DNA of 64,000 bases. Source: Yuukianura sp. NJ FZ-2021. Taxonomy: Eukaryota. The notes under the pieces were generated by a model that had not been told where the DNA came from, searched no databases, and saw only the letters and a program-made list of their open reading frames with translations. The translations under genes and the position numbers were made by a program. Below are positions 14,906 to 56,492 of this stretch, in pieces. The stretch's first letter is position 1, and each line of letters opens with the position of its first letter. Where the stretch lies: the NCBI GenBank assembly GCA_046563655.1, contig CM102285.1, positions 7,936,001-8,000,000 on the forward strand, given 5' to 3'.

Positions 14906-14941
14906 TTATTTGATCATTCATAAAGTTATATTTAGGAAACT

Positions 14942-19864: not shown

Positions 19865-20491
19865 TATATGGTCCTATTCGAACCGGATCCTACTATTTTT
19901 TTCAGAAAGGAAGGGAAGTTCGAGTCATCATATACCTAGCGACATGGTGTTTATTACTTTCTTTTCGTTTGCACCGCAGGGGTAAGATAAATATTGCGTT
20001 TTAAACAGTTATTGGCACATAGGCGACATTCGGGTTTGGTTAAGTAGATATTGTCGCAGAAACAACGAAAACACTTACTAACATGATGTTCACGGCTGTG
20101 CTCAAATGAGGAAAACAGCATGAGGCAATGGCGACAATATAAACATACGGTAGTCTTATGTTTTTCAAATTCTTCGATGTTTTTCATATTACTGCCACAA
20201 CTGTTACAGTGGTTACAGCCGGCAAAGCGTTGCTTCTTCTCCTTATCGGTGGTTAAATGCTTCTTCTTCTCAGACAACTAAGATCAATAGTTAGGGGTTT
20301 TCAATCCTAGGTTGCGTTAAAGAGGAAATAGAGGCATCTTACCGTGAAACCATGCTGAGAACACATAGGAGCTGCAGGCTAGGGCGTGAACATCGGAAGC
20401 GCTGACACAAAAAGCACGCTCACAGCCACACCGTTGGTCCACTCGTTCTGTTGGGTCGTGAGAAATTACATGATCTTCGAATTCGGCGGCG

Positions 20492-38980: not shown

Positions 38981-38997
38981 AATATTTCTTAACTAAA

Positions 38998-39344
38998 TGT
39001 GGGGACTTTCTCCTCGTGACCTCCACATGTCAACATGGCTCAAGAGAGACATCCTCTGTCTGCATCCCGGACGGCCTGGAACACTACACCTCAATCTGAC
39101 CTCGGCATCTCCACCTCTAATAACGTCTCTCGCTCTCTCTCTCCCAAATAGGCAACACACTCTTTATTCACACTCTCAATACCCTGAGCTCTAGAAGGAA
39201 CCTCAGCTGCACGTAAGCCTGTTCCTCGGGTAGAGATCCTCTCACGAGGACCTCTACTCGAGTACTCTCCCTCTCACTCCTCTCATCCTCCTCTTCTCTA
39301 CCTCTATCATAGTGAGGACTCCTACCCCCATAAGAGGCCTCACA
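38998..39344 (-). repeat. 3' LTR of element B (347 bp)
   Basis: TGTGGGG...CCTCACA ends, purine-rich GAACAGGGGGTGTG on the minus strand at 39345-39358, and AATAAA on the minus strand near 39163. Confidence 0.9.
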
Positions 39345-39618
39345 CACACCCCCTGTTCAGCTGAGAATCCTGCACGATACTCTTTACACATCTAAAATGT
39401 TAGGGTTAATGATGTTAGATGGATTGCCAAAAAAAAAAGTTTTGTTCGTTAAGTTTTGTATTTTTGTATTGGATTTTCGTAATGCATTCTAAAAGTAACT
39501 ACATTTATGTATAAGACCATGAAAGGTCTAACTAGGGAAATATCTCCCGACTACACAATGATAAATGCTAGATGATCAATCAACTACAAGTAAGAGTTAA
39601 TGTGTTAAGGCGTGGCTA

Positions 39619-40647
39619 TTAGACGATGGTGGAGTTGACACAACGGCCGACTTGGATCCCCAGAAGGGACATATGAGTTTCCGCTTGACCTCGGTGCAAA
39701 ATCTCGTCAAATTCGTTGGTAAGGGGAAGAAAGTCTGACGTTCCGATGAGGGTGGAAGAAGTCCGATTAGTAGTCCAGACTAAACGGACGTAACTCAAAC
39801 GTCTGCCACAAACTGGTTCGGTGAACATTGATGAGATGAAGAGAGCCAGAGATGGGCAGCGAATAAACGTTTCCCCTAACAAACAGGTTTGATTATTATA
39901 AATTTTGTGATCGCATGGGAGTTCCTTATCAAAAATCCTGTATTTCGGTCCCCATACAATTGTAGAATCGATCATGTCGCAAACCTCAGCGTCAACTGTA
40001 CACGGCATTAATGTGCGCATGTGCGTGACTAAAATGTTCCTTGCTTGCGTAACGACAAACTCACGAACAGTCAGATAGTAATTGACGACTTCACTGGTGA
40101 TGGTGGTGGGCCATTTGTACCATGTCACAGGCGTACGGGAGGTACCGTAGGTAGAGGTGTTGAGCTGTAAAAGAGGTGTTCCCTGTGGATCCCGGTAGGT
40201 CATTGCCAACATTTGACATTCCCGTGGAGTCATGTGTTCCAAGCGTCTAGTCTCAAAAGGGTAATAAATACCGAAAAAGTAAAGTGTTTTGGATTGAAAA
40301 GTTACTTCCCGTTGACATTCCAATGCTTGGTATGGGCGCCGGAGATCTTCAACGGTGTGAATATCCATAGTAACGAGTGCTTCTGGTTTGGTTGAGGAAC
40401 TAAGCGAGCACGTAGTTGGCGCATCCCGTAGGGTATACAAAAGTCCTAAGGTCCAATGTGATCGTTGTTCCTCTACCATGAAGGGATACTTGTCCATCGA
40501 GAGTTGTTCGGACGCTTGTCCCTGAACTTTCTTAAGGGTCACATTGGATGGAGAAACAGCCGTAATTTGAAGCAATTGAGCATCAGTCCATTGGGCAGAC
40601 GTTGCCACTACGGTGAAAGTTAGTATCGTTAGTACCGAAAGCATCAT
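39619..40647 (-). CDS. Env paralog 4: predicted secreted, anchorless homolog of the Env N-terminal half
   Basis: Signal peptide MMLSVLTILTFTVVATSA. LECQREV..YFFG, TPRECQM, YKWPTT..EVVNYY, TIVW and IRCPSL align by eye with Env. No TM helix. Confidence 0.85.
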   Translation of the reverse strand: MMLSVLTILTFTVVATSAQWTDAQLLQITAVSPSNVTLKKVQGQASEQLSMDKYPFMVEEQRSHWTLGLLYTLRDAPTTCSLSSSTKPEALVTMDIHTVEDLRRPYQALECQREVTFQSKTLYFFGIYYPFETRRLEHMTPRECQMLAMTYRDPQGTPLLQLNTSTYGTSRTPVTWYKWPTTITSEVVNYYLTVREFVVTQARNILVTHMRTLMPCTVDAEVCDMIDSTIVWGPKYRIFDKELPCDHKIYNNQTCLLGETFIRCPSLALFISSMFTEPVCGRRLSYVRLVWTTNRTSSTLIGTSDFLPLTNEFDEILHRGQAETHMSLLGIQVGRCVNSTIV

Positions 40648-40743
40648 GTTGTCACTGCAAAGACGAAAAAACATGAAATTAGTAAAACCCAATCCACACA
40701 TTATAATAAGGACTACTGAAGCTTATTCGTTAATGCCTTAAAC

Positions 40744-41985
40744 CTATTTCCTAGGATAAAGCCCTTCATCCACCCGCCTGGCGGTGTTATTTTGCATTAA
40801 ACTAGTTACATCAAACGTTTCGACATCGTCAGAATCATCCCACTCTGTAGGTCGCTTCTTAGGAGTATTTGTTGCCGGATCCGCGTTATCTATGTAAAAT
40901 GCTGTATAGTTAGCCAAATTGAGAATAGTTTGGACTCTATTCGTTATTTGTCGTGTAAAAGGATGTACCGTTCTTTGTCCTGTAAGTTCACAGGAACCAA
41001 TATGCAAGATTTTAAGAAAACTTGCTTTACCCCACTTAATACTGTGAAAAAGATGTTGGAAATTCATTTCGATGTGAAACGTTTGCTTTGTGTTAATCGT
41101 ATTGGTCTCCACCTCCTCCAAACCTTCCTCCGTCTCAATGATACTGCGGGAAACGCCCAGTGATGTCCCACATTCCTCAACAGAAGAATTATAGTAGTCC
41201 GTAATACTAATAGCCAAATCTGGACACACTAACTGAAGTGGATTCAAAAAACAGTTGGACGCCACCCGTTTCTTCAGAGAGCATGTAGTATTTTGGAGTC
41301 CAGGGAAACGCCATACGAGTAAACCACGTTGAGTCCAACATGAAGAAGCTTTGAAGGCACAAGGCTCTTCTAGATCTGGCAATTGTGTAGCGCGGATATA
41401 TCCCGAATAAGGGTCATGCTGAATGGTTACTAAGGAGATGTAATAATTAATAATGCGCACTCCCCACGGCTCAGATCGTCCAAATTGCGTATCGTTCGAA
41501 ATAAGATAGTTTCGCGTGGCGATCGTAGTTTCGTTAATGATGGACATTGGATATCCGTCCGGGTCAGTTCGAGTCAAGTGCATATGAATACACTTGCTAG
41601 GCGTAAGTGCCTTAGGAAACATGGTAACATTAGTAGTGAAAGTCTTAGCGTGCTGTGGATTATGGTACAATTCCTTCACTTCTAAGGCACAATGATATCC
41701 TTGCGTATAAAGACTTGGCGCGATTCCACTCCAAAGGGCTACTGAAATCATCGCCGAATCTTTAAGGTCATAAGGACAACTTTCGGGTCGAGTTCGTAGC
41801 ATCCCCAACGTCCATACCCGAGTAAGATTAGAAGGAGGTAGCAAGTCCGGTGTTTCAAGTTGTGTCAATTTAGTAAGGCGTGCCATTTGGTCAAATTCGG
41901 TAGTAATGGTTCGCAATTCCGCTAGTCCCGGAAGAACATGGTGGGTGAAAAAGACGAAAGTCATAGTCAGAGGAGACAGAAGCAT
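40744..41985 (-). CDS. Env paralog 3: predicted secreted, anchorless
   Basis: Hydrophobic N-terminus. GYHC, TPSKCIHM, DPDG, IINYY, C....SSC, LLVW, LVCPDL, CGTSLGVS and NFQHLF align with Env. No TM helix. Confidence 0.85.
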   Translation of the reverse strand: MLLSPLTMTFVFFTHHVLPGLAELRTITTEFDQMARLTKLTQLETPDLLPPSNLTRVWTLGMLRTRPESCPYDLKDSAMISVALWSGIAPSLYTQGYHCALEVKELYHNPQHAKTFTTNVTMFPKALTPSKCIHMHLTRTDPDGYPMSIINETTIATRNYLISNDTQFGRSEPWGVRIINYYISLVTIQHDPYSGYIRATQLPDLEEPCAFKASSCWTQRGLLVWRFPGLQNTTCSLKKRVASNCFLNPLQLVCPDLAISITDYYNSSVEECGTSLGVSRSIIETEEGLEEVETNTINTKQTFHIEMNFQHLFHSIKWGKASFLKILHIGSCELTGQRTVHPFTRQITNRVQTILNLANYTAFYIDNADPATNTPKKRPTEWDDSDDVETFDVTSLMQNNTARRVDEGLYPRK

Positions 41986-42035
41986 TATTGAGCTGTAAAG
42001 AAACACAAAGGTAAAGAACTTTGACGTGAGTCCCA

Positions 42036-43124
42036 CTAACATCCCCCCAACTGTTTCACTTGAAGAAAAGTGTTAGTAGTTTCTTTTAACTGTGACACTA
42101 ACGTGTGAAATTCTGAGTCAACCAAAAACTGGGTAGAATTAGAGTAGGTTACTAAAGATTCTGGAGTCGTAGTTATTTTCACTAATTTCTGTTCCGTCAA
42201 CTGTGTGTCTACTTGATGCGGCAAAATGTAACGTCGGGAGTGAGGACAATAGATCATGGTGGGTGAAACAAAACACATAAAATCAGTATATGCTGTATAT
42301 TGACATAGGTGACCATTCGGAGGATCCAGTTCCTTCTGTAAAAGAAATCCATTTAACAGAGTACACACTGGTTGCCCAAAGTAACAGGAGTTGTCCGTTA
42401 GATACAAGTCCGTATTAACAATTTTTTGAGAAACAGGGTCCACATTGAGATTAAGTTTTTGCACATGATAGTCCACAAACATATTATCCTCACTGGGTAA
42501 AAAACGGGAGTTCAGATACGGATTTTTGTCTTGATAAGTAGTGCGGCGCTGGGGGTCTAACCATGTGGATGAAATGGCCCACTTAGAGTGAGGTACCGGT
42601 AAGTTAAAATATCCAAAAAATGTAGAAAACGGTGAAATTGGAGTTAGTAGGCGGCCGTGAGGATCCATTTTGTGTAATATCATCTGATAACAATCTTCCA
42701 GAGTGAAATTTTGATTAAGATAAACTCGACCATAATCATAATGAAACGTTGAGGATGCTCCTATCCGTGTCGAAGCATATTTGTGGATGGATGATCTGGT
42801 ACTTGTACATGCATAGGCCTCACGTGGGTTGCCATGAGTTCCTTTTAACTGAAACTCCACAGATACCAAAAGTGTTTCTTCCATTTTCACTACCTGAGGA
42901 TGACGATGTGGACTTAAGTACCCGATCACCCACCGATGAGAAGAAGGAAGTGGTCTCACAAACCTACTGTCACTATTCCACATAGCGCGGTCACCGTCAT
43001 TAGACACAGTCGCTTTGGTAAATGTATTGAGATTGGTAGGCACAGGAGGAGAAGGTCTCAAACTCATCGAGTGAGAGACTGTTGAAAATGAAAGTAGTAT
43101 TGCGAGAGTAATTTGCCACTCCAT
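42036..43124 (-). CDS. Env paralog 2: predicted secreted, anchorless, most divergent
   Basis: Signal peptide MEWQITLAILLSFSTVSHS. AYAC, TLEDCYQM, DPHG, VDYH, C.....VC and IYCP keep the Cys spacing of the other paralogs. Confidence 0.78.
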   Translation of the reverse strand: MEWQITLAILLSFSTVSHSMSLRPSPPVPTNLNTFTKATVSNDGDRAMWNSDSRFVRPLPSSHRWVIGYLSPHRHPQVVKMEETLLVSVEFQLKGTHGNPREAYACTSTRSSIHKYASTRIGASSTFHYDYGRVYLNQNFTLEDCYQMILHKMDPHGRLLTPISPFSTFFGYFNLPVPHSKWAISSTWLDPQRRTTYQDKNPYLNSRFLPSEDNMFVDYHVQKLNLNVDPVSQKIVNTDLYLTDNSCYFGQPVCTLLNGFLLQKELDPPNGHLCQYTAYTDFMCFVSPTMIYCPHSRRYILPHQVDTQLTEQKLVKITTTPESLVTYSNSTQFLVDSEFHTLVSQLKETTNTFLQVKQLGGC

Positions 43125-43204
43125 AGTCAGTAAAAGAGTACCAATTTTGAAAAGTCGTAACAAGATTTTGTTGTTTTTAGAGATTGTAACGTATCAAGAG
43201 GATG

Positions 43205-45733
43205 TTATGCTGGACGCGGGATGCCACTCCAAATGAAACCGTCCCCTTGAATGTACGGCTCGGTGAAGACTGAAGAGGGTGCCGTCGGTACCAATTGGTA
43301 TGAAGGGACACGAGTTTCCACAGAGGCCCTTAAAGGCATAACGGTGGGCGGAGCGTATCTCGGAAGGTTCGTAGAAGGTTGAAGTTCGGAAGTAAGTAAA
43401 GGAGGTTGCGAAGGTAACGTGCTCGGTCGTTCGATTAAAGGAAGCATTGTCATGTCATGTCTATTCATTGGCGGTTCAAGTAATGGCGCTTGCTGTGTGC
43501 GGTGAAATATGCGTGCCACACCCGGTAAGCGTTGGTATAAGGGCCGCCAAAATTTCAACAAAAGGACAAAGATGACCACTAGAACTGCTATTGTGAGGAG
43601 TCCAGCCAAAAATTTAAGGGTAAATTCTTTAATGGGGTCGATTGCCCAACCTCGAATAACATTCCGAACTTCCAACTGTTCCGCTGTCAACGGTTTTCCT
43701 TTAATTTTTGAACGAATTATATTGTCAATCGCTTTAGGTGCCTGAACTTGACGAAAGATGGCCATAACTGAATCAGAAGTTGTGATGTGTTTAAGAGCAA
43801 TTGACCCTGGACTATTAAAACTGATTTCAGCCATAGGTTGATTAGGGATTGAATTTTGGATTGGCAACGGAATAGTCGGCAAACGGACTTTAATGGTAGA
43901 AACATTGTTTAATAAAATACTCGTGTCATCGTCAATGTTGAAATAGAACGGTGGAACTTCATCACAAGGAGCCAATTCAGGTTCCAACACAATTTGATGG
44001 GACAACGCATTCATGTAGCCTTGCATCTTCTGGTGTTGGTACATGAAAACCACAGGCATATTTCGAGTACAATTGTCTCGTGATGGTTGAACAAAATGGT
44101 AAGAGTCAATTTGAGTACATGCTTTAAGTGATAATGCATCTCCGGATAAAGTAGCTAAATACCGATGATCACGTAACAACATTCTTGTGATGACATTCGG
44201 AATTTTATTTTCAGTAAGATAAGTACTGATATCCAAAAGTTGCCGTTGATTAAGGCATACTTGTTGCACCAAATTCTGAATCGCATAAGTGACATTCGCT
44301 CGAACCATATCATGCAAATACTGAAACTTTGCATTTGTCTCCGCGGCTGACATAAGTGTTGCTTGCGTTGGGAAAGTGCGTTGTCTACCTTGTGTAAGTT
44401 GACGAAAAACGTCTTCTTCGCGACCTTGGTAGAGTATCTGCGTATTTTGTTTTCGCTGGTCATTAACGTTAGATGACGAACCCGCAATGGATTCTTTCTC
44501 CCGAACGGAGAACGTTGGCCTCTCGGTGACAGAAGTTGAAAGAGGTTGGATTAAAATAGGTGTAGGCAGACGCATTGGTAAATGTGTTAAATTAGGATGA
44601 TTTGGCGGAGTGTCAATCGGAATTGGGTCATGACCTAAAGTCTGTTCCGCCTCCGTGACCCATGTTGGTGGTTGTTCCGTGGAAGTTTCAACCGAGGTCG
44701 TTATAGGAACCCGTTCTTTCGATACTTCCACAATCCCTTGGAAACCTGGCGCTTTAGGCCTGTTTTGTATTTGTTGTAACAAAGTCTCATCATCCGTTTC
44801 AATCAAATGACGCTTTTGTTTTCTCCCCCCGACACTCGATTTCAGACGGGTTAGAGCTTCGAACGTTGAGGTGGTATCCACGGAAAACGGAAAGATGTTT
44901 TCACGCTCTGGAGTAAACATCACCCCTTGAGTGCTAATCCCCATTTTGTATCCACACAAATCGATTTCATGTACCCCCGAAATACTATAGGATAATTCAG
45001 GACAGGATAGTTGAACATCATTGGTTAACAAGCATTGAGTCGTGGCAGAAGGTTGAAGACGACAAGTTTGAAATAAAGTATGTGTCCAAATCAAAACTGA
45101 TTCACCCGTACTAGGACAAGAATTATCCGTAGCTGGGCAGTTTGCCGTCAATGGAATAGGTGCCATTACCGTTTGATCCAAATTGTTTGCGGAAATCGTA
45201 ATTGCTGAATAATAGTAGTTGGTCACCTCTCTCTCAATTGTTTTAGGCCAAACATAATCTATTTCGACTTTTTCCGTAGTACCCCAAGTATTGTCCAGTA
45301 ATAACGTCATTTGTTTTTTATTTGGAGCCAATTGTTCCTCGACCATTCGCCTACACTCTTCTGCTGATACTTTTACTGGCGTTTCTTGAGACGATCTCGA
45401 ATGACTTCCCCAAAAGAAGAATGAGCGAACCTCCGAATTGCGAACAGCGCGACAATGAAATCCTTTTATAGCATCCATATTGGGGTTCTCAGCCCAAATG
45501 GTAAGGGTAACGACTTTGGTTTCCGTTCGTAATTCCTCTATTTCACAGGAAGGCATCGTTGGTAACCGATACAGTAACGCCCTGCTGGTTTCATCACAAT
45601 ACCAGAGGTGCGGCATTTTTGGTTTTAAGGATCCAAAATACAAACGATAGAGATTCAATTCCTCGAGAGTAGGTTGTGCCGTTGTCATCATGACCAAAAG
45701 AAAAGAGATGGCAAAGACAAATCCAGACGCCAT
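43205..45733 (-). CDS. env: Envelope glycoprotein, class III fusion protein-like (herpes gB/rhabdovirus G/chuvirus-like)
   Basis: Signal peptide, GFHC..FFFWG..VSAEEC segment, basic site RKQKR, long helix NAKFQYL...QVC, gB-like GDALSLKAC..C...PV motif, TM helix FLAGLLTIAVLVVIFVLLL and a Pro-rich tail. Confidence 0.85.
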   Translation of the reverse strand: MASGFVFAISFLLVMMTTAQPTLEELNLYRLYFGSLKPKMPHLWYCDETSRALLYRLPTMPSCEIEELRTETKVVTLTIWAENPNMDAIKGFHCRAVRNSEVRSFFFWGSHSRSSQETPVKVSAEECRRMVEEQLAPNKKQMTLLLDNTWGTTEKVEIDYVWPKTIEREVTNYYYSAITISANNLDQTVMAPIPLTANCPATDNSCPSTGESVLIWTHTLFQTCRLQPSATTQCLLTNDVQLSCPELSYSISGVHEIDLCGYKMGISTQGVMFTPERENIFPFSVDTTSTFEALTRLKSSVGGRKQKRHLIETDDETLLQQIQNRPKAPGFQGIVEVSKERVPITTSVETSTEQPPTWVTEAEQTLGHDPIPIDTPPNHPNLTHLPMRLPTPILIQPLSTSVTERPTFSVREKESIAGSSSNVNDQRKQNTQILYQGREEDVFRQLTQGRQRTFPTQATLMSAAETNAKFQYLHDMVRANVTYAIQNLVQQVCLNQRQLLDISTYLTENKIPNVITRMLLRDHRYLATLSGDALSLKACTQIDSYHFVQPSRDNCTRNMPVVFMYQHQKMQGYMNALSHQIVLEPELAPCDEVPPFYFNIDDDTSILLNNVSTIKVRLPTIPLPIQNSIPNQPMAEISFNSPGSIALKHITTSDSVMAIFRQVQAPKAIDNIIRSKIKGKPLTAEQLEVRNVIRGWAIDPIKEFTLKFLAGLLTIAVLVVIFVLLLKFWRPLYQRLPGVARIFHRTQQAPLLEPPMNRHDMTMLPLIERPSTLPSQPPLLTSELQPSTNLPRYAPPTVMPLRASVETRVPSYQLVPTAPSSVFTEPYIQGDGFIWSGIPRPA

Positions 45734-45845
45734 GGAGACAATAGGATTGAAGTAACTTCTAAAATAAGCATGCACTAAAGTAAGCAAGTGAAGACTAATA
45801 CCTCATCGAACCTTAGGTTCTGTAGCGACCGAAAAGGACGAAGAC

Positions 45846-48800
45846 TTATCCCCATTCATACTCATCCAGCCAGCGAGGGGGTTTGCGCGAGCGTGCTGAG
45901 CGTGTGGGGACTTCATTGGAAGGGATAGGGAAAGGACCGGCGTCATCAGCCTCAGCCTCCTCCCCCTCCCGAATGGGAGAATCCATCGTCGGAGTCTGGG
46001 GTTCGTGCCCCTGAGATTCCCGAGTGAAAGTTGGCAGATCTTTCTCTACTGCCAAACCATGTTTTTCAGCCCAAATGGAGAGTAACTCGCGATGTTGGCG
46101 TAGAAACTGGAAAACCCGTGGCTTATCCGTACTTCGCTGTATTACCGCCACCAGCACGCCAAAGATGGACACATATATTTTCGTATGTAGCGAGATGAGC
46201 AAAATCAAGAATATAAGAAATTCTTCCCAATGGTCTCCGAGAATCGCCAAGGAATGCGTGAGGAGTTGATTTTTAAAGAGCAGCATATTGTCCGTCAAAG
46301 ATTCGGACTCAACAAAATGGACCCATAAACCAGAAGGTTCAAGAATTTGAGCGTTACTTTGACATACTGGTGTCAGTTTGCCCGTAAAGCCTGGTGATTC
46401 ATCGATCAGAATAACATCAGTTAGGGAAAATTCCTGACAAGTGTGGAGGATTCGTTCAACGGAGCTGTCTTTACCGAGAATTATGGCTTTAATTACATAA
46501 ATTTGCAGCAAAGTATTAACGTTATTTAAAATCTGTGTGTTCCATGCCACTGTAGACTGCAAAAAATCCAAAATCAAATCATAATGATGAATCTCGTCAA
46601 GAAAAGTCTCCTCACTAACTAGTATATCCGCAAACTCGACATCAGGTGCACTCCGCTCATCAATCAATCGCATGCGCTTCGTTTGTGTAAGGAATTTACG
46701 ATTAGAAGTCAAACATTCAACCCGATACGTTGTGGGATTGATCTGTTCGAGGACTCTATATTCGCCATAATAATACGGAGTCCACTTTTTTGGAAACCCT
46801 TCAGTAGTCTTTCGAGGATACGTAAGTCTAACTTTAGAACCAATTTCATACGAGACCGTACTACTATACTTCTCCGCTTTGCGTTGCTGAAGAAGTTGTT
46901 GATGGGCAATCGCTTGTCGTACATCTCCCCATAGCTGCTGAATCGTCTTTTGTTTTTTAGACATCTCACTAGTGAGTACTTGAGTATGAAAAGTGTATGG
47001 TAACCGTGGCTGAAAGCCCATAAGAACCGAGAAAGGACATTGAAATTTCAAAAGTTTCAACGGAGCCGTATTAATACAAAACATGAGGGTAGGGATGTAT
47101 TGCACCCAATCTGTTCCATGATCATTAACAAAACTACGAATAATGGTGTGAAAAGTTGAATTGCTTCTTTCCGAAATCGCGTTGCCTGTTTTGGAATAAT
47201 AACAAACAAATCGAATCCTGGTACCAAAAAGTTTACTATGAGATTTAAGAAAAGTAGAGATGTAGCCTGGACCATTGTCACAGATTATAATTTTGGGTGA
47301 CGAAAACTTAAGAAAAACTTCCTTTTCCAGAAAATGAGCAATATCTTGTCCCGTCGTTGTTTTAAGCGGAACTATGATTTGGTACTTTGAGAGTAGACAC
47401 ACGGCGTTAATAATATATTTATAACCGTTACTTTCTTTAAATGGACCACATATATCGGTACTAATGATTTCCATTGGATGACTCGGAATTGGAAGTGACC
47501 CCATGGTGGCCGAAGCCTTTCCGTAATGGCGCTTCATACGGCCACATATTTCGCAATTCAAAACAAAAAGTGCTACGTCTTTCTTCATGGATGGCCACGC
47601 AAAGTGTCGAAACATTCGATAATAAGTTTTAGTAAAACCCATATGACCACTTAGTGGAGATTCATGTGCCTCTGCCAGTATAGTATTACGTAAGACCTTA
47701 GGAACAAAAATACGCGATATACCCATTTTCATGTCGTATAAAATATCGTTCTTAAGGATATATCGTGCTTTAAATTTAGGATCAGGCGTATTCAGACTTA
47801 GCCTTATTCGAATAGCTTCTTCGTCTGCCATCTGAAGCTGTTTCCAATCCAAATCGTCCTCCTGTCTACGCCACCCATCCTCTCGTTTATCATAATTTTT
47901 ATCAAAGAGAATTGTCATGATGGAAGACGAATTATACTGCTGTAATTCAACATCGTCATGAAACTCTTGATGTAAAGGGGTCCTGCTCAAATAATCCGGC
48001 AATTCCATAGTTTCACCTGTTTTGTATTTGATGACAAAATTAAAGTCTAATAAATAAGTAGCCCAAAGAATGATCTGCCTACTAACACGTTTGCATGGAG
48101 CGAGAAATTCTTTAATTTGGGAAATTGGTTCATTGTCTGTGAATACTGTGAACTTTATGCCGAGAAGATAAATGTGGAAGACTTTACACGCTATAGTAAT
48201 AGCAAGCAGTTCCCTCATGTACGCCGGCATGTTTCTTTGTGCTTTGGTTAGAGTACCTGAGTGGTAGGCACATGGCACTTCGACATCTTTGTCCACTAAT
48301 TGCATCAAACAACAACCAATCCCGTACGCACTAGCATCCGTATATACTCTCGTTTCCCGAGAGGATTGGAACCAGTGTAATAGCGGTGGAGATGTTAGCA
48401 AACTGCGTAACTGATCAATAATAGCAAAATGTTGGTTTTCCAAGACAAATTTTTGATCTTTTTCTAATAATTTGTATAGTGGTTGGCAAATAATAGACAA
48501 ATCGGGAATACTACGGCGAAACCAGTTAACTGCCCCTAGAAAGCGCATTAATTCTTTAGGTGAAACAGGGTAAGGAATATTCCTGACGGCTTCTAATTTT
48601 GTCGGATCTTGTTGAATACCCTCTCTACTAATGTACATCCCTAAAAGCTTAATTTGTGTGTAGCCAAAGTGACTCTTATGGACTGAAAGCTTAACTCCAT
48701 ATTCACGTAGTCGAATAAACGTCTTACGTAAATGTTCCAGATGGTCCGCGAATGAATTAGAGCCAAAACACAAATCATCCAAGTAAATTGCGACAGATTC

Positions 48801-50396
48801 GTACAGGATAGAACCAAGACATAAATGCAAAGATCTCACAAAACTCGCGGGCGCATCGCGAAGGCCAAACGGTAAAATTTTATATTGAAAATTTCCAAAA
48901 TATGTCGTAAATGCTGTATACTTCCGAGAATCTGGATGTAAAGGGACATTATGATATCCTTTACTGATGTCCGCGACACTCAGAAATTGATGTCTTGTTC
49001 TTAGCCATTCCAAAATTGTCTCTACCCCAATTAAAGAGAATTCAACAGGTTCACATTGCGCATTTATGTCCCCATAATCAACACACATCCTATAAGTTTT
49101 CGTTCCATCACCTGTTGTTATACCGTTTTTAACCATGACGGTGCGAGATAGAAAATTGGAGTTGCTTGGTTCAATCTTATCTAGTTTTAATAACTCCTGG
49201 ATGGTTGCATTTTCAGCATCCATAGCTTCTTTATTCCGCCGAACCGGTTGATGGCGAAACGGTTTAGCATTTGGCTTTAAAACGATGTGATGAACATAAT
49301 CTTTGATAACACCGATCTCACCCTTATAAGAAAAAACATCATTATACTGTCGTAATAGTAAACGCAATTGATCTTGCTGTTCAGGATCCAACTCGGGATT
49401 AATACGAGCATACAATGAGTGTAAGTGATTCTCGTAGTCACCCTGAGTGAGTCCCTTAAAATTGTATTCCTCCCATGGTTCGCGAAAAGTAACTTTCTTT
49501 GAACCATTTCCTGCAACACCGTGTGGTTCCTTGTCCGTCGGCTGAGTATCTGCCAATCGTGGAGAATTTGGAACAGTAGGAGAAGAATCTACATCGTTAT
49601 GACCAAGCTTCGTCTCCTGATCCAACATCGGAAAAACTGACTTGTAAGAAATGTGATCTGCATCGGATTGACCAGACACGATCGCCTGTCCCTCCTGCTT
49701 GTAAGAAGTGTGACCTGCGTCTGCGTGACCAGGCACTATCGCCTGTACACGAGCGGAAAACTTCTCTGGTAAACACGTACTATTCATCTCAACTCTGGTT
49801 CCCTCATCATCTGTAGTATTTTGTGACTTATCATTAAATATGGTGGAACTAAGGTGCTGAGTCCTTTCATGCATGGAAACAGCATCTTTTTCCTGGTCCC
49901 CGGCCGAGGAAACTATATCTAAAACTGTAGTGTCTACTGAATAAATTCTCTGGTTTGCAGAATGGTTCAACTCGGGAAACTCTATCCCTCCGACATCATC
50001 CGTAGGAACCACAGGGAAAGTTGTATTACCAATAGTGACAGCCTGAGTGGCTAGATCAATTTTGACTTTATGTTTACGTAAGAAATCCATACCCAAAAGT
50101 ACCCGGGGAGGACAATTATCCACCACTAACAACTCATGATCTGCCTGAAAACCTGGAAGATGAATAGAGACTTGGATTTTACCCGCCGGAACTATTTTAG
50201 TTGCACCGATTCCCGTGAGTGTAACACTATGGCTGAGTTTGTTAAGTCTCGTAGTGTCCACTAAAGAAGAATCGATTAAGGATGCCTGAGCACCCGTATC
50301 TAATAAGATGAGCGTTGAGTAATTATTAATTGTCCCATTAATTTTGAGTAATTCAGTACCTGTAATATGAAAAACACACTGTTGTTGAGAGTTCAT
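45846..50396 (-). CDS. pol: Pol polyprotein (PR-RT-RH-IN plus C-terminal extension), 1516 aa
   Basis: Motifs LLDTGA, RMCVDY, LPFGL, YLDD, YTDAS, HHCC (HESPLSGH...CEIC), STDICGP, CDNG and SERSN. The frame is uninterrupted and overlaps the gag stop (ATGA). Confidence 0.97.
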   Translation of the reverse strand: MNSQQQCVFHITGTELLKINGTINNYSTLILLDTGAQASLIDSSLVDTTRLNKLSHSVTLTGIGATKIVPAGKIQVSIHLPGFQADHELLVVDNCPPRVLLGMDFLRKHKVKIDLATQAVTIGNTTFPVVPTDDVGGIEFPELNHSANQRIYSVDTTVLDIVSSAGDQEKDAVSMHERTQHLSSTIFNDKSQNTTDDEGTRVEMNSTCLPEKFSARVQAIVPGHADAGHTSYKQEGQAIVSGQSDADHISYKSVFPMLDQETKLGHNDVDSSPTVPNSPRLADTQPTDKEPHGVAGNGSKKVTFREPWEEYNFKGLTQGDYENHLHSLYARINPELDPEQQDQLRLLLRQYNDVFSYKGEIGVIKDYVHHIVLKPNAKPFRHQPVRRNKEAMDAENATIQELLKLDKIEPSNSNFLSRTVMVKNGITTGDGTKTYRMCVDYGDINAQCEPVEFSLIGVETILEWLRTRHQFLSVADISKGYHNVPLHPDSRKYTAFTTYFGNFQYKILPFGLRDAPASFVRSLHLCLGSILYESVAIYLDDLCFGSNSFADHLEHLRKTFIRLREYGVKLSVHKSHFGYTQIKLLGMYISREGIQQDPTKLEAVRNIPYPVSPKELMRFLGAVNWFRRSIPDLSIICQPLYKLLEKDQKFVLENQHFAIIDQLRSLLTSPPLLHWFQSSRETRVYTDASAYGIGCCLMQLVDKDVEVPCAYHSGTLTKAQRNMPAYMRELLAITIACKVFHIYLLGIKFTVFTDNEPISQIKEFLAPCKRVSRQIILWATYLLDFNFVIKYKTGETMELPDYLSRTPLHQEFHDDVELQQYNSSSIMTILFDKNYDKREDGWRRQEDDLDWKQLQMADEEAIRIRLSLNTPDPKFKARYILKNDILYDMKMGISRIFVPKVLRNTILAEAHESPLSGHMGFTKTYYRMFRHFAWPSMKKDVALFVLNCEICGRMKRHYGKASATMGSLPIPSHPMEIISTDICGPFKESNGYKYIINAVCLLSKYQIIVPLKTTTGQDIAHFLEKEVFLKFSSPKIIICDNGPGYISTFLKSHSKLFGTRIRFVCYYSKTGNAISERSNSTFHTIIRSFVNDHGTDWVQYIPTLMFCINTAPLKLLKFQCPFSVLMGFQPRLPYTFHTQVLTSEMSKKQKTIQQLWGDVRQAIAHQQLLQQRKAEKYSSTVSYEIGSKVRLTYPRKTTEGFPKKWTPYYYGEYRVLEQINPTTYRVECLTSNRKFLTQTKRMRLIDERSAPDVEFADILVSEETFLDEIHHYDLILDFLQSTVAWNTQILNNVNTLLQIYVIKAIILGKDSSVERILHTCQEFSLTDVILIDESPGFTGKLTPVCQSNAQILEPSGLWVHFVESESLTDNMLLFKNQLLTHSLAILGDHWEEFLIFLILLISLHTKIYVSIFGVLVAVIQRSTDKPRVFQFLRQHRELLSIWAEKHGLAVEKDLPTFTRESQGHEPQTPTMDSPIREGEEAEADDAGPFPIPSNEVPTRSARSRKPPRWLDEYEWG

Positions 50397-51658
50397 GGAT
50401 GTGCCCTGTTGAGTGAGTTGATCAAGGGGTTCACTGGATTCCCCGGACGGCCCCCTTCCGTCGCCTCGGGTTGTGCGTTTTTTAAATACTTACAGTTTTC
50501 TGTACTGTGTGTAGTACTATTATGATGTGTGCAAAATTGCTGTTTTTTGCGTGGACGTTGAGCTGCTGTAGGCTGCATACGACAAGCTTCCGTAGAATGG
50601 GTATCGGTGCGATGCGTTGTGCAATAAGTGTCCTCTAAACAATTTGAAGCTAGGTGACCCGGTCTAGCACAACGGAAACAGGTCAAAGTGCTACATTTAG
50701 ATGCAATATGCCCCGGCTGTCCACAGCGATAGCATCGCATGGGACCTTGACCCCTACGTTGCGTTCCACCAGCCTGAGAGTTCTGTGTGAACATCTGAGA
50801 ACCCTGATACAAGTTTGGGTCTCGAACTAGTGAAGTATCCTGTATGAATTGCTGCAAATTAGGATATAACGCTGGAGGTTGTGTCGCTGCCGCGTTGACA
50901 AAAGTAACTGTGTCGGTATTACTCGCCCTAGTCACATTTGCCATTGCTTGTTCCAAAGCAAACACATCTCTCTGATGTGTCAACATGGATGTAGCCTCCT
51001 GTATCGTCTTACCAATTGTAATAAACTGGTCTATTGTTTGCGGATTGAGCAGTGCCATCTGCTGTAAGTACGAAGGCCGCAGATTCCGAATCAAGTATTT
51101 CAACTTACGAGATTCGCTAAGTGTCGGATCCAGTTGTTGTAAAATGTTCAATAAGTCGTACGTATACGACTCAATTGACTCATCCACCCGTTGCTTACGG
51201 TTTTGCGCTTTATCCTCCGTAGCAATTGAATCCACAGCTCCAAAGATTTTAAGGAAAGCTGCTCGTAATTGGTCAAAACCTACTACCGCCGTTTGTTGCG
51301 GACTTTGGAGCCGTAATTGCTCCAGGTAATTGATGAACCAATCTTCCGCAACCTTTTCCAAGGAAGCGGGTAAAAATAAACCCCAATTCGCTTTGGGTAA
51401 ACGGTTCGCCATTGCCGCGATCTCCCATTTGACAAGGAATCGATAGGCACATTCGTCTTTTCCTCCCGCAAATTTAGGAAAAGGCACGGTGACCCTTTGT
51501 GACGCTGCCAAGCCTCGCGGCTGTAAGGCTCCTTGAACTCTTGCCGCTGAGGCAGTCATAGCCGGAGCTGGGATAAGTGTGGGAAGAGGAGGTGCAGGTG
51601 GAGGTGTAGCTGGATTTAAGTTAACTATATCCTCTAAGTCATCCAAATCATTCATCAT
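50393..51658 (-). CDS. gag: Gag, 421 aa, with two CCHC knuckles and two C-x2-H-x4-H-x4-C motifs
   Basis: Motifs FPKFAG, L...A..WF, RKQRVDESI, CYRCGQPGHIASKC, CFRCARPGHLASNC, CTTHRTDTHSTEAC and CTHHNSTTHSTENC. Confidence 0.95.
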   Translation of the reverse strand: MMNDLDDLEDIVNLNPATPPPAPPLPTLIPAPAMTASAARVQGALQPRGLAASQRVTVPFPKFAGGKDECAYRFLVKWEIAAMANRLPKANWGLFLPASLEKVAEDWFINYLEQLRLQSPQQTAVVGFDQLRAAFLKIFGAVDSIATEDKAQNRKQRVDESIESYTYDLLNILQQLDPTLSESRKLKYLIRNLRPSYLQQMALLNPQTIDQFITIGKTIQEATSMLTHQRDVFALEQAMANVTRASNTDTVTFVNAAATQPPALYPNLQQFIQDTSLVRDPNLYQGSQMFTQNSQAGGTQRRGQGPMRCYRCGQPGHIASKCSTLTCFRCARPGHLASNCLEDTYCTTHRTDTHSTEACRMQPTAAQRPRKKQQFCTHHNSTTHSTENCKYLKNAQPEATEGGRPGNPVNPLINSLNRAHP

Positions 51659-53346
51659 GTTCTGTATGTGTAATTTGTACCCTCAATCACCAAATGAACG
51701 AGGTATTATTAAAGAAAAATATTGGTGTTTGTTCAATAAAAGTGAAAAATGATTACTCACGTTTGATGTTAAAAGAAATCCAATTAACAATGATTCAAGC
51801 CGCCGCCGTAGTCGTGGTGCGTCCACAAAAGATAGTTCAATAAGGAGAGTTATTGTCTTAAACAATCAACGAATGTCGTAGGTAGTAAAAATGAAAAGAC
51901 TTGTAATTGTTCTTTAACTTTAGTACAATGGATAAAGTAAAAATGTCTGATCCAACTCCGTCCACTGTCAGACGCGTACTCCCCCGGATGCCTTCTACTA
52001 CTTCCCTTAATATTCCTTTGTACTGTGTATGCAAAAAGGGAACACGCACGAGGCAAGGCCAAAAAGCGTAACGCAATGGCGTCTAAAGGCAATGACCGAT
52101 GAACTACTCCACGTGCCAACTTGTGTGGAAAATGAAAGTGTATTGAGTCCAATTTGGTTGTTTGTGTGTTGCTGCTCCATTTCCAATGGTATAGGAGTGA
52201 ACTCCGCCCTTACTGGGAAGGATGTTGTAACCACACCCATACCGGTGAACATATTCAACTAACTCCTCCCATACCGTTGGAGCTGGTTAAGACTAGTGTT
52301 GTTTTAGTATGTTTAAAAATAAACCTCGTCCAGGCCCAAGATGTCGAAAAATCATCCACACCCAAAGAGATGAAAAGTCATCCACACCATATATGGCAAC
52401 CATGGAGCGGATGGTTTACATGGTGTGATGTATCCATGATCCTCAACGTAATCTCCACACTATTGTCTTTCGCTTATACTATTCCAAATGCATCTACCCC
52501 TTGGACTACCAACGCATATGCGTAATGTAGTGCAGGGACAGTACGCACTTTTCGCCCGGCGGATCAGTCTCCATCGTCCTAAAGGGGTGCAGTTGCAGCT
52601 GATACTTTCTCTCTTAACACCAATTTATAGTAAAAATAAGTGCAAAAAGAAACTAAATACTAATCGTGATATATGCTTGTGTCAGTTTTAATTGAAGACT
52701 CTCGTTTGCCAAAACCCGTACATCATAGTAGATGGTATCCAGGGATAATCACAGTGAAAGTGAACGGACATTCTAGTGATGTAATCTGCCCTATGCCATG
52801 CTGTAAAGGAAGTGTCCTTTATGTAAGTACAACAAACTGAGTTTGTCGCATTAAAGCATGAATTAAAAGCAATGTGATTCGTACTTTTAAACTACTATTC
52901 GCAGTAGATGTGTTAGATAAGCGTGAAACTACGTACTCAAAATTGTTTATTAAAAAAATAGCAACGCTGTGCCCCTCAGACCAAAGCATGAAGATACCGT
53001 GTGTTAGACGAAAATCTGTACTTCATCAGTGTAATCAATTGACTCATTACTAAACCATGAGGGTATTTCTAGGCTCATTTCGCTTTGAATAACGTACCGA
53101 GATTAAGAACTGGAAAGGTTTACAAAAAATCGTTTTATTCGTGTTTTGCAAATATGATATTACTGATCGAAAAAAAATGATTTAAAACGGTATCCTTTCC
53201 TTCTATCACACCGTATAAAAAATGCTAATTTATAATTTGATTTTGTTTTCTTTATTTGATAGTTCTCACGTCAACACCTAACCGCATTTTTTCACTATTG
53301 ATTGTAAAACGTTCAAATCCTATCGAAGGTGGAAGAAGATAGCAAC

Positions 53347-56122
53347 ATGGAAAACTCTGCTAATGGTAACGAAAGTGAACATGAACTCGAAAATACTGTA
53401 TTAACAACCCCACGCGACTTGTTTATGGGACATTGCAGTTTCCTCCCCAATGCATCTAACAATACTAACGGTAATTCAATCAATGAAATGGAGGCTAACT
53501 CGAATGGAGACGGTTTTACCGATTTAATTATAGTTTTGTCCCCTGTTCCTCATTATGAAGATCTAACCCCAGATCCTGAACCGTTACAATCACCAACTGC
53601 TTACGAAATGGCCACGGAGTGTGAAATGCCTATGATCCCAACGAATCCAACTTTGGCTGACGTTCAAGACCCCGCTGTCCACTCTCCGCCTACCGAAACT
53701 GCCGATGTTGTACCCGCTGGAGACGCTGGAGTGAGAATCATGAACCCTACGCCATCTACCTCCCGATTAATCGTGGATAGTTTAAAATCAAAAAACCAAA
53801 ACCGTAGCACTCCCAAACCCTCTCCAAAACGCAAACGAGCCAACAAACGAGCTTCTGGAATCCGGTCTCCTCACTGTGTCGTATCGGACCCCGATGACGT
53901 ACTCCCCTCGTCAAGCGTATCCACTCGGGATCCGACTCCTCGTAGTTGCAAAACGACCAACCGACGTTACTACCATATTTATACCAGTTCGGAAGATGAT
54001 CCTGAAAGTGAGCCCGAAGTCCTCTCCTCGCCAAGATCGTCCCGTGCCGGGTCTCCGAATCCTTCCCTGGATGATTTTCCCTCTACTCCAAATGCTGGTT
54101 ATCAGACCGCCTTGTCTTATTTACAGCTGACTATTGCGAATGTTCTGAAAATGTGGCATCATGACCAATACAAAGCCAAACGAGGCAAAACTCGATGGGA
54201 ATTCACAGACGACGTCCGAAATTGTCGAGCCGAGGGGTTAACTGTGGAGCTCGGGCACACTTTCTTCAAGGGTCTGAAAGAGACGTTTAAACCTAGAACC
54301 TGGAAAGTTGTTGTATGTAATGAACACTTTTTATGAACAAGAATGGTAAGAATCTAATGTCCCTAACCGATGTCAACCCTTAGTTACAGGATCCCCAAGT
54401 GGTGTCCTTCTTTAAAGCCAGCTTAGAGTCTCTGGATGAGAAAAGTTACTTTTTGAATATGCTCTGCCATTGGATAATTGAGCTGTTCCCTGGAACCACA
54501 GCGAGACGCAATCGAACCGACATTATTGATTGTTTTAATGTAAGTTGTTAACGAGTAGTGATTAGAACATGCCGTCTAACATTCTTTGTGTTATTTGTGT
54601 ATTCCAGTGGATCCTTAGGTATGACCTCGTGACCCAAGTCGAGCTGGCGGAATGGTGTTTTCGTGCTATTTCGCAAAATTTACAATTAGGAACCGGCCGT
54701 AACCGTTTTCATGATGCCGAATTTGATTACATCTTTGTGCTAGGACCAATCTATCCTATGTTGACTCGAATTGTGACTACCGAGGTAAAAGCAAATATCC
54801 TTATGTTGAGCATATTCAATTGATAAATCTCCAACTTGCAGGGAATGACGGATCCGCTCGCGCAATTTGTGGATCTTCAAATTACCAGTTGTAAGCAGGG
54901 AATGGCCGCAGGTAATGCCGTTATGTCCCCCGCCACTGAGAGCCTGATTGAGTATGCGGAAGATCCCCGTGTGAAGCAAATCGTAAGTTCAATACCCTTC
55001 CCTCACACGTGCTCCCCTAATAGAGACAACCATTTCTGTGTTCTATTTTTAGTTGCTTTCTGGGCGAGGTTTGTTTGACATAAAATGCGAAATTCTAAAT
55101 CCCAATTCGTCTTGTCGTTTCTTTTTTGTCACTGGGTATTTTATGATTTTTTATATTATTTGATTTGCTTTTTTCACCATGTTTTTATCGTTACTGACTG
55201 CGATTCATAATCATAGGGGCTGGATCTTAAAGTGTAAAGACATGGACCACACCGACGCCATCGCTAAGTTTGAGAAATCCCTTGAGGAAGGTGGTGAGGG
55301 GTATATTCGGACGCGGTGGACTGACGGTCAAGGGAACCCGGATACTCTAAGACTGCCCAAATGTGAAACAAGTAAGATCAGACTGTTATTCGAAAAACCA
55401 AAGTCGTGTTCAAAATGCTAACCTCTCAAACTATGTAATTTAAGGATTTTTCCCCCAAGATCTACTAACTTCCCCGACAATCGAGACAGGGCGTTACTAT
55501 TGTGGAATATGCCAGGCCGAGCTGCATGATCAGAAGATACTAGATCCAAAACTAATCAAAACCCTTGTAAAATACACGAGTGAGGAATTCCTAGCCCATG
55601 TTCATGCGCACAACCCTATTGACCGCATCGATCAACGTTGCGGCTGTTACCGCTCCCTTTGGGTGTCTGCGAGAGATGTCCATGCTCGGAGTTGTTCGTC
55701 TTGCGTATGTTATCAACACGGTTTTAGTGTAAGTGACTATCTTCTACTATGAACCTACACCCTTCAAAACTAACGAAAATCTGCCTTATGAATTATAGGT
55801 TCGTTCCAAGGCTTTCCATTTGACTTCCGAGCGAGAACGAAAACAAAAACATGCCGGCTGTAACTTTTGCAACCTCTGTGGGCGTAACATGAAGAGTATT
55901 GAAGAGTTAGAAAATCATACGTTACACAAATGTAAAGCTTGTCGCCATTGCGAGTTATCTTTTTCTTCTATTGGTGAAAGTCGTGAGGATCATAAGACCA
56001 AATGTTTCCGCTGCTATTGTGGTAATGTATATGAGACCCCAGATGCTTGTCGTTTGTGTATCGTAACTTGTTTAAAACGAAACATTTACCTTACTCCCGA
56101 TGATGTAAATCGAAAACGTTGA
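53347..56122 (+). CDS. Antisense 8-exon accessory gene of element B (~761 aa; disordered N-terminus with basic NLS-like patch, Cys/His-rich C-terminus)
   Basis: Exons 53347-54312, 54384-54539, 54608-54784, 54842-54982, 55053-55135, 55217-55371, 55445-55728 and 55799-56122 join via GT-AG introns into a 2286-nt open frame. A homolog lies at 19954-26366. Confidence 0.85.
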
Positions 56123-56192
56123 GTTTGTAAATAAATTTTGTCGTGTGTGTACTTACGTGTTGTCTTCGTTCCAACTTTACCATCAAAAAGGG

Positions 56193-56216: not shown

Positions 56217-56492
56217 TGTGGGGACTTTCTCCTCGTGACCTCCACATGTCAACATGGCTCAAGAGAGACATCCTCTTTCTGCATCCCGGACGGCCTGGAA
56301 CACTACACCTCAATCTGACCTCGGCATCTCCACCTCTAATAACGTCTCTCGCTCTCTCTCTCCCAAATAGGCAACACACTCTTTATTCACACTCTCAATA
56401 CCCTGAGCTCTAGAAGGAACCTCAGCTGCACGTAAGCCTGTTCCTCGGGTAGAGATCCTCTCACGAGGACCTCTACTCGAGTACTCTCCCTC
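56217..56492 (-). repeat. 5' LTR of element B, lacking its outer ~71 bp
   Basis: Matches 38998-39273, then switches abruptly to host exon sequence at 56493. Confidence 0.93.

What the first reader, a model, noticed from the sequence alone, without database searches (positions are those of the whole stretch)
40647..56156. Splice acceptors just upstream of gag and three env ORFs, and a donor just after the PBS
Seen on the minus strand: CAC|GTAAGT at 56156, about 60 nt inside the 5' LTR. Candidate acceptors are CATACAG|AACATG (AG 51662-3, gag), TTATTTTAG (45759-60, 25 nt before the env ATG), TTTCTTTACAG|CTCAATAATG (41993-4) and TTTTTTCGTCTTTGCAG|TGACAACATG (40655-6). No clear acceptor precedes paralog 2. 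Inference: one donor feeds a nested set of subgenomic mRNAs, and even gag-pol may be translated from a spliced RNA that removes the 4.5-kb leader holding the antisense gene.
Basis: partly seen in the sequence, partly recalled or inferred. Interest (0 to 1): 0.7.

Follow-up and report, generated by a model that had tools for sequence, protein, structure and literature searches.

The report
Spliced envelope cassette in gypsy retroelement
A retrovirus-like jumping gene in an arthropod genome probably makes its several envelope-type proteins from separately spliced messengers, and because a backwards-facing, intron-containing gene fills the space before its capsid gene, even the capsid message seems to need a route of its own, though not the exact splice first proposed.

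Summary
All five motifs are at the stated places, in a young 17.5-kb Ty3/gypsy element with a gB-type env and three shorter paralogues. The env acceptors hold up. They rank 16, 7 and 1 of 972 sense-strand AGs, and a distant metagenomic relative has an AG 0-1 nt before all four of its env start codons. The gag acceptor does not: it ranks 342 of 972, below all 28 training acceptors. The donor at 56156 is strong but has no counterpart in a sister element in the window, and it would put out-of-frame upstream ORFs over env1 and env3; donors at 56094/56089 or 51760 fit as well or better. The 519 nt before gag are ATG-free, the longest such gap in the window. That points to a separate gag-pol 5' UTR (internal promoter, another acceptor or an IRES), not the 56157-51661 junction. 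No RNA data could be tested. The scan reported the four-acceptor cassette before on other DNA of this genome (e1-7468604).

The parts
56217..56492 (-). 5' LTR remnant (276 nt; lacks about the first 71 nt of the 3' LTR copy); AATAAA at 56387; five ATGs at 56327-56247
   Evidence: 1 mismatch in 276 nt to the 3' LTR; ATG list; AATAAA
56191..56212 (-). Primer-binding site, tRNA-Tyr-like with a 2-nt insertion
   Evidence: the same in sister element B; tRNA-Tyr 3' ends in PMC13524379 supplement file 2; the assignment is my comparison by eye
56151..56159 (-).
   Evidence: rank 3 of 990; no GT counterpart in element B
56084..56097 (-). Alternative LTR-proximal donors (first intron bases 56094 and 56089), inside the last exon of the antisense gene
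   Evidence: 56089 rank 1, 56094 rank 45 of 990; 56094 aligns with B's 19982 (rank 3 of 246); both put upstream ATGs in frame with env1, env3 and env4
53347..56122 (+). Antisense gene: 8 exons (53347-54312, 54384-54539, 54608-54784, 54842-54982, 55053-55135, 55217-55371, 55445-55728, 55799-56122), 7 GT-AG introns of 57-81 nt, 761 aa, Cys/His-rich C-terminus; AATAAA at 56130
   Evidence: one open frame after splicing; 4 of 4 internal exons measured have the same length in B; dN 0.34 vs dS about 3 over 273 codons; no Pfam match at cut-off for 7 pieces
51659..52177 (-). 519-nt ATG-free stretch directly before gag; candidate 5' UTR; holds moderate acceptors at 52083 (0.9), 52023 (-0.1) and 51918 (0.7)
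   Evidence: longest ATG gap on either strand of the window; 2 of 2000 shuffles ATG-free; AG scores
51755..51763 (-). Gag-proximal donor (first intron base 51760), 79 or 99 nt before the AGs at 51682 and 51662
   Evidence: rank 5 of 990; two similar donors 88 and 171 nt before the ATG of a related gag fragment (18451, 18534)
51662..51668 (-).
   Evidence: score -4.1, rank 342 of 972, below all 28 leave-one-out training scores
50393..51658 (-). gag, 421 aa
   Evidence: zf-CCHC above cut-off, Ty3_capsid below cut-off
50477..50486 (-). Slippery run for -1 frameshifting into pol
   Evidence: the pol frame opens at a stop at 50492, 31 codons before the pol ATG; no stable downstream fold
45846..50396 (-). 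pol, PR-RT-RH-IN
45759..45775 (-). env1 acceptor (45759), with a second good AG at 45775
   Evidence: ranks 16 and 14 of 972; an ATG at 45771 follows 45775
43205..45733 (-). env1, 842 aa, signal peptide and transmembrane helix, class III (gB-type) fusogen
   Evidence: Monjiviricetes_fusion 49.1 bits; about 30% identity to Folsomia 'Envelope glycoprotein B' P0011; hydropathy
42036..43124 (-). env2, 362 aa, signal peptide, no transmembrane helix; no acceptor found
   Evidence: best match is the second ORF of L003; AG scores
41993..42012 (-). env3 acceptor
   Evidence: rank 7 of 972; 21 of 1000 shuffles
40744..41985 (-). env3, 413 aa from ATG 41985 (an in-frame ATG at 42042 overlaps the env2 stop)
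40655..40678 (-). env4 acceptor
   Evidence: rank 1 of 972; 8 of 1000 shuffles
39619..40647 (-). env4, 342 aa from ATG 40647 (in-frame ATG at 40701 upstream)
38998..39344 (-). 3' LTR, about 347 nt, TG...CA, purine tract before it
   Evidence: start inferred from the LTR start of element B (19482)

Best explanation
The element is an env-bearing Ty3/gypsy retrotransposon that expresses its glycoprotein cassette by alternative 3' splice-site choice. One upstream exon is spliced to an acceptor just before each env start codon, giving nested mRNAs that share the 3' LTR end. Each is translated from its own ATG and signal peptide (inferred, about 0.75). The full-length LTR-to-LTR RNA is mainly the packaged genome, because an intact 8-exon antisense gene fills its leader (gene shown; the consequence is inferred). 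Gag, and Gag-Pol by -1 frameshifting, come from a separate message whose 5' UTR is the ATG-free 519 nt before gag. Most likely it starts at an internal promoter back-to-back with the antisense gene (0.4), in which case 51760 is a natural common donor. My odds for the donor that feeds env: 56094/56089 0.35, 51760 0.3, 56156 0.2, other 0.15. env2 has no recognisable acceptor in this copy, and its route is open.
For: Ranks of env acceptors. L003, 23-32% identical per env paralogue, has an AG 1, 1, 0 and 0 nt before its four env ATGs. Shuffle test over 11 env-type starts, misses included: Fisher p 2e-6; without the two starts I picked by eye, p 1.3e-4; this element plus L003 only, p 4.6e-4. Starts right after the acceptors open with hydrophobic signal peptides. 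Leader of 4558 nt with 62 ATGs and an open 761-aa antisense gene, dN 0.34 vs dS about 3. ATG-free stretch. Donor 51760 at host intron length from the gag AGs. Spliced env mRNA is usual for insect ERVs (PMC12992720, passages). Internal promoters are shown in Oikopleura Tor elements (PMC4402516, passages).
Against: No junction was observed. The matrix rests on 28 homology-inferred sites. Equally high acceptor scores occur in coding DNA with no role: 12 of 319 ATGs have a site scoring 3.4 or more within 40 nt, and 9 of the 12 are not ORF starts. env1 alone is not significant (118 of 1000 shuffles), nor are L003 env1 (440) and env3 (106). The T-rich tracts of env3 and env4 also read as hydrophobic codons from upstream in-frame ATGs. 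env2 lacks an acceptor here although L003 has one. No promoter was identified; the only TATA-like box I saw by eye (52628) has 14 ATGs between it and gag. A second ATG gap of 507 nt elsewhere in the window has no known role. The related gag fragment has ATGs 38 and 69 nt upstream. Strong donors after the LTR in both this element and B keep the LTR-exon models alive.
Confidence: 0.5

Rival explanations
1. One reading: the donor at 56156 feeds 51662 (gag-pol) and all env acceptors.
For: Donor rank 3 of 990; the splice joins ATGs 56255 and 56183 in frame to gag. An AG 3 nt before the ATG resembles the env layout in L003. The leader must be bypassed. Some true sites in the training set score poorly too (lowest -3.3).
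Against: Gag acceptor below all 28 training sites; 528 of 1000 shuffles do as well. The donor is absent from element B. Out-of-frame upstream ORFs overlap env1 by 43-137 nt and env3 by 92 nt. The ATG-free 519 nt is left unexplained.
Confidence: 0.12
2. All messages start in the LTR, but the env donor is 56094 or 56089, adding a short leader peptide as in ZAM. Gag-pol is spliced to an acceptor at 52083-51918, so the ATG-free stretch is a 5' UTR exon.
For: 56089 ranks 1 of 990. 56094 aligns with B's strong donor 19982, and each has an open ATG in phase 2 upstream (56183; 19944, 38 nt). All three env acceptors share one phase. 52083 lies near the 5' edge of the ATG-free stretch and scores within the training range (6 of 28 score at or below it). 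A short peptide exon upstream of gag is described for ZAM and Beagle (PMC12992720).
Against: The GT at 56094 is forced by a Thr codon of the antisense gene, and 5 of the 10 codons around it differ silently (read). Offsets in relatives (1, 1, 0, 0, 37, 2, 27 nt) share no phase. 56089 has no GT in B. Three acceptors share a phase by chance 1 time in 9.
Confidence: 0.2
3. Gag is made from the unspliced genomic RNA by internal ribosome entry or shunting onto the stretch before gag. LTR-proximal donors serve env splicing and suppression of the 5' poly(A) site.
For: IRES elements are reported for some errantiviruses (PMC3383448, passage). U1 binding at a major donor suppresses 5' LTR polyadenylation in foamy viruses (PMC3694450, abstract); 56156 lies 231 nt past AATAAA 56387. 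This keeps translation and packaging on one RNA.
Against: No IRES evidence was obtained. An IRES need not be ATG-free over 519 nt (inference). The model leaves the donor at 51760 without a role.
Confidence: 0.2
4. The env ORFs are not spliced: they have small internal promoters, or are read by leaky scanning and stop-restart from one polycistronic env message, and the acceptor motifs are T-rich chance.
For: Tor3b/4b env mRNAs come from internal promoters without splicing (PMC4402516). The env2 stop overlaps an in-frame env3 ATG at 42042. env2 has no acceptor.
Against: Acceptor strength exceeds shuffles that keep composition. In L003 the acceptor TAG is an in-frame stop directly before the ATG of env3 and env4, so those tracts are non-coding. 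Intergenic gaps in L003 are 86-330 nt with no overlap.
Confidence: 0.2

Closest known systems
HSV/gB-type env-carrying Ty3/gypsy 'ancient errantiviruses', including Collembola_Entomobryomorpha_Fcan_errantivirus_1 (Chary & Hayashi, eLife 2026, PMC13524379; abstract, part 1 of section 6, passages, 3 supplement look-ups)
   Same: LTR-PBS-gag-pol-env layout, Ty3/gypsy pol order, gB-type env with signal peptide and transmembrane helix; about 30% identity to a Folsomia gB-type env.
   Different: Four env-type ORFs, a 4.56-kb leader with an 8-exon antisense gene, 17.5 kb in all. The paper's main text has no 'splic', 'paralog', 'tandem' or 'antisense'. Its LTR search looked 3 kb beyond gag and env and capped LTR distance at 14 kb, so these ends would be missed.
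Drosophila insect ERVs (gypsy, ZAM, Beagle, springer, idefix subclades; PMC12992720, passages)
   Same: env from a spliced subgenomic mRNA; in ZAM and Beagle from a short peptide exon upstream of gag.
   Different: One F-type env and one acceptor; the passages read mention no spliced gag. Here up to four acceptors, a class III env, and env ORFs with their own ATG.
Oikopleura Tor elements (PMC4402516, passages)
   Same: Env-bearing LTR elements whose env mRNA is either spliced from the LTR or made from an internal promoter: a precedent for both routes weighed here.
   Different: There gag and pol start in the LTR and only env uses the internal promoter; here the separate route concerns gag-pol.
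Plant LTR retrotransposons with antisense additional ORFs (Grande, RIRE2, Retand; PMC7264820, passages)
   Same: A conserved antisense ORF with its own promoter inside the element.
   Different: Mostly between pol and the 3' LTR; the review has no occurrence of 'intron'. Here the gene lies before gag and has 7 introns.
Complex retroviruses (HIV-1, foamy viruses; PMC3694450 abstract, the rest recalled)
   Same: Works like them: a donor near the PBS and nested acceptors, one per downstream gene.
   Different: Not Retroviridae: gypsy-type pol and class III env. In those viruses gag is read from unspliced RNA (recalled; PMC7912102 listing).

Membership tests
Ty3/gypsy (Metaviridae) LTR retrotransposon | Direct LTRs with TG...CA ends, PBS and purine tract | tested here: met
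   the 5' LTR copy is truncated at its outer end and no target-site duplication is visible
Ty3/gypsy (Metaviridae) LTR retrotransposon | pol domain order PR-RT-RH-IN with gypsy-type domains | tested here: met
Ty3/gypsy (Metaviridae) LTR retrotransposon | RT phylogeny within Metaviridae | not tested
   no RT tree was built
gB-type env-carrying errantiviruses (Chary & Hayashi) | Intact gag, pol and env with signal peptide and transmembrane helix | tested here: met
gB-type env-carrying errantiviruses (Chary & Hayashi) | env homologous to HSV/gB-type ENV | tested here: met
   PF24664 above cut-off, PF00606 below cut-off; E 8e-76 to Folsomia P0011
gB-type env-carrying errantiviruses (Chary & Hayashi) | Five-domain trimeric fold and cysteine-bridge class | not tested
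   no structure was predicted
Elements with spliced subgenomic env mRNA | Acceptor signal before env, conserved in relatives | tested here: met
   3 of 4 env ORFs here; AG 0-1 nt before 4 of 4 ATGs in L003, 2 of the 4 significant singly
Elements with spliced subgenomic env mRNA | Observed splice junction | not testable with these tools
   no RNA holder listed
   56156 is not kept; B has a strong donor at the place of 56094, but antisense coding can explain it
Retroviridae (complex retroviruses) | Retroviral pol and class I env | tested here: not met
   gypsy-type RNase H and integrase families, class III env

The most novel reading that the evidence does not exclude
A gypsy-type element whose packaged genomic RNA codes for nothing directly. 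An intron-containing antisense gene fills the leader, its introns surviving reverse transcription because they face backwards. Every sense protein, Gag-Pol included, is made from an LTR-started spliced message: five or more nested mRNAs from one leader exon.
Probability: 0.35. Interest if true: 0.72.

Novelty: new variant of a known kind. Interest (0 to 1): 0.5.

Why it matters
Spliced env mRNA is ordinary for env-bearing gypsy elements. A conserved cassette of four env-type genes, mostly with one acceptor each, would be an independent route to the gene-expression plan of complex retroviruses outside Retroviridae. The leader raises the sharper question: if the genomic RNA cannot be scanned to gag, the element must separate its translated and packaged RNA pools. 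How packaging then picks the right RNA is an open question for LTR elements. One long-read cDNA experiment would decide among four named routes. I found no description of this layout in paper searches (listings only); most subscription journals are outside that library.

Tried and rejected
RNA test: no RNA holder listed for 39000-48900, so no reads were laid. No whole genome is held, so copy number and other copies were not examined. Word-index protein searches found nothing for env1, gag or the last antisense exon. Viral contigs gave no relative for gag, env, the PBS pattern or the antisense exon. The four metagenome loci contain no gag or leader, and their records are not searchable, so the gag question has no outside comparison. 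L002 was left out of the combined tests as 99% identical to L003. The region before the related gag fragment (18200-19480) does not align with this leader (best E 0.23-1.7); the fragment is decayed, so its motifs are weak evidence. env2 acceptor candidates rejected: 43210 (-10.4), 43270 (-2.8), 43119 (-3.7, after the ATG) and 43079 (1.5, but the next ATG has no signal peptide). A pol acceptor at 50406 was rejected (rank 254 of 972). The RNA after the slippery run folds no better than shuffles (183 of 200 do as well). One donor of the training set was off by one base and corrected; donor ranks come, except 'rate' and B-side scores quoted. The ESM Atlas gave only generic zinc-finger look-alikes for the last antisense exon, at low recognition. 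Scan look-ups returned nothing. Two of the 17 Collembola rows of the eLife master table were not seen, and its other supplements were only term-searched.
Full report
What the element is. The finding lies in a 17.5-kb LTR element on the minus strand. The LTR copies differ at 1 of 276 shared bases, so the insertion is young. The 5' copy lacks about the first 71 nt and no target-site duplication is visible. Inside are gag (421 aa), pol in Ty3/gypsy order, and env1 (842 aa, Monjiviricetes_fusion). Three shorter ORFs, env2-env4, are related to env1's N-terminal part directly or through one another. The named relative among ten env homologues looked up is Folsomia candida 'Envelope glycoprotein B'. 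Earlier scan notes call the host springtail-like (not tested by me).

The motifs. All five are at the stated coordinates. The donor lies 61 nt past the end of the 5' LTR, not inside it. To ask whether they exceed chance I built weight matrices from introns inferred by homology in this window: 28 acceptors (7 and 7 from two copies of the antisense gene described below, 14 from three host genes) and 25 donors. None is confirmed by RNA. Among 972 sense-strand AGs of the element, the env4, env3 and env1 acceptors rank 1, 7 and 16; the gag acceptor ranks 342 and scores below all 28 leave-one-out training scores. In 1000 composition-preserving shuffles of each upstream 100 nt, the observed score was reached 8, 21, 118 and 528 times; env2 has no AG within 40 nt. 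High scores also occur inside coding DNA: 9 of the 12 ATGs with a site of 3.4 or more are not ORF starts. A single score therefore proves little.

Relatives. A metagenome scan gave four loci. L003 carries the same four-gene cassette; each ORF here matches best the ORF at the same position there, at 23-32% identity. An AG stands 1, 1, 0 and 0 nt before its four ATGs. Shuffles reached those scores 440, 30, 106 and 27 times in 1000. L001 and L004 add three starts (32, 3 and 25 of 1000), two of which I picked by eye. Over all 11 env-type starts, misses included, Fisher's p is 2e-6; without the two hand-picked ones 1.3e-4; for this element and L003 alone 4.6e-4. L002 was left out as 99% identical to L003. 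This is good indirect support for one acceptor per env gene. An earlier scan note (e1-7468604) reached the same idea on a related element 135 kb away; I could not see its DNA, and it may rest on the same relative, so it is not independent support.

The leader. Seven GT-AG introns of 57-81 nt give one open frame of 761 codons from 53347 to 56122, with AATAAA at 56130. The four internal exons I measured have the same lengths in B, and 273 aligned codons give dN 0.34 against dS near 3. The gene is thus under purifying selection and fills the leader to within 34 nt of the proposed donor. Its introns can survive reverse transcription because they face backwards (inference). The protein has no Pfam match at cut-off and no homologue in one search; its Cys/His-rich end suggests a nucleic-acid-binding regulator (inference). 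With 4558 nt and 62 ATGs before gag, scanning from a cap in the LTR cannot be the route to Gag.

The donor. 56156 ranks 3 of 990 GTs, 56089 ranks 1, 51760 ranks 5 and 56094 ranks 45. B has no GT at the place of 56156 or 56089. Its strong donor 19982 aligns with 56094, but a Thr codon of the antisense gene forces that GT. Six ATGs lie in the LTR exon, and four are open to 56156. But all four overlap env1 out of frame and two overlap env3. With 56094 or 56089, two join env1, env3 and env4 in frame. The relatives' offsets share no phase, so this may be chance. A donor soon after the PBS is present in both elements and fits retroviral practice, including suppression of the 5' poly(A) site (PMC3694450, abstract). 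The evidence does not single out 56156.

The route to Gag. The 519 nt directly before the gag ATG contain no ATG. It is the longest gap on either strand of the window (1022 and 1067 ATGs), and 2 of 2000 shuffles match it. A 507-nt gap with no known role also exists, and the related gag fragment has no such gap. It fits a scanned 5' UTR. It also holds a strong donor at 51760, 79 or 99 nt before the two AGs nearest gag, near the length of host introns; the related, decayed gag fragment has two such donors within 171 nt of its ATG. I favour an internal promoter back-to-back with the antisense gene (0.4), then IRES or shunt (0.25), an LTR exon spliced to 52083-51918 (0.2), and the 56157-51661 junction (0.15). 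No promoter was located, so these are judgements. Gag-Pol most likely arises by -1 frameshifting: the pol frame opens at a stop at 50492, just before a slippery run in the gag frame, although no stimulatory fold was found. An in-frame 134-nt intron (50493-50360) is a minor alternative.

Comparison with what is known. Spliced env mRNA is the rule in Drosophila insect ERVs, with a short peptide exon upstream of gag in ZAM and Beagle (PMC12992720, passages). Oikopleura Tor elements use splicing or an internal promoter for env (PMC4402516, passages). IRES elements are mentioned for some errantiviruses (PMC3383448, passage), and spliced messages for rotifer ORF3s (PMC5408684, passage). Plant elements have antisense ORFs, mostly after pol (PMC7264820, passages). 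Spliced gag messages of plant copia elements (listings only) cut within or after gag by my recollection, which is a different arrangement. Searches listed no element with four env paralogues or an intron-containing antisense gene before gag.

Verdict. Spliced nested env messages are likely (about 0.75). Some bypass of the leader for gag-pol is close to required, but the named gag junction is the least supported of four routes. This is a new variant of a known kind; the cassette was noted before on other DNA of this genome, while the 8-exon antisense gene and the ATG-free stretch did not turn up in my scan look-ups. Interest 0.5.

Noticed in passing
window 19482-26366 (+): Sister element B: LTR, PBS and the same antisense gene (about 60% aa identity in the exons compared), interrupted by an insertion; no gag, pol or env found after it.
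   Followed up: partly
window 20487-23859: Insertion with 44-nt inverted ends (86% complementary) and a 277-aa ORF that looks like a Transib/RAG1-type transposase (name recalled; no Pfam hit at cut-off), inside B's antisense exon 7.
   Followed up: no
window 50360-50493 (-): The second-best donor (50493) and second-best acceptor (50360) of the element flank the gag-pol overlap; a 134-nt intron would fuse gag to pol in frame. It would drop the first protease residues, and the -1 frameshift signature is present, so I give it about 0.1.
   Followed up: partly
window 17946-18401 (-): Decayed gag fragment, 67% nt identity to this gag, with donor-like sites at 18451 and 18534 and an acceptor-like AG at 18375.
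   Followed up: partly
window 56493-57400 and 37948-38997 (-): The element sits in a host gene with CxxCxGxG repeats (SSUH2-like, name recalled), in the same orientation. The outer part of the 5' LTR, apparently some host sequence and any target-site duplication are missing at the left junction: a deletion or an assembly fault.
   Followed up: partly
window 39619-43124 (-): env2-env4 have signal peptides but no transmembrane helix and match only the N-terminal part of env1, so they look like secreted pieces of the fusogen; each matches best the same-position ORF in L003.
   Followed up: partly
window 7742-12787 (-): A separate intact-looking gypsy element with identical 214-nt LTRs, nested in older retroelement debris (about 300-13400).
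   Followed up: no
window 13947-15406 (-): Two related ORFs of about 155 aa with similar N-termini and no Pfam hit at cut-off, near gag-like debris; perhaps accessory genes of another element.
   Followed up: no
window 34914-34987 (+), 35100-36800 (+), 59254-61400 (-): Host tRNA-Ala(CGC), primase small subunit and a PDZ-domain gene; introns of the last two were used as splice-site training examples.
   Followed up: partly
L001 8687, L004 1277: Signal-peptide-like starts right after the best-ranked ATG-linked acceptor of each contig; their frames stay open only 65 and 50 codons.
   Followed up: partly
window 52200-52400 (-): Short repeated GT-rich motifs between the TATA-like box at 52628 and the ATG-free stretch; possible factor-binding sites.
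   Followed up: no
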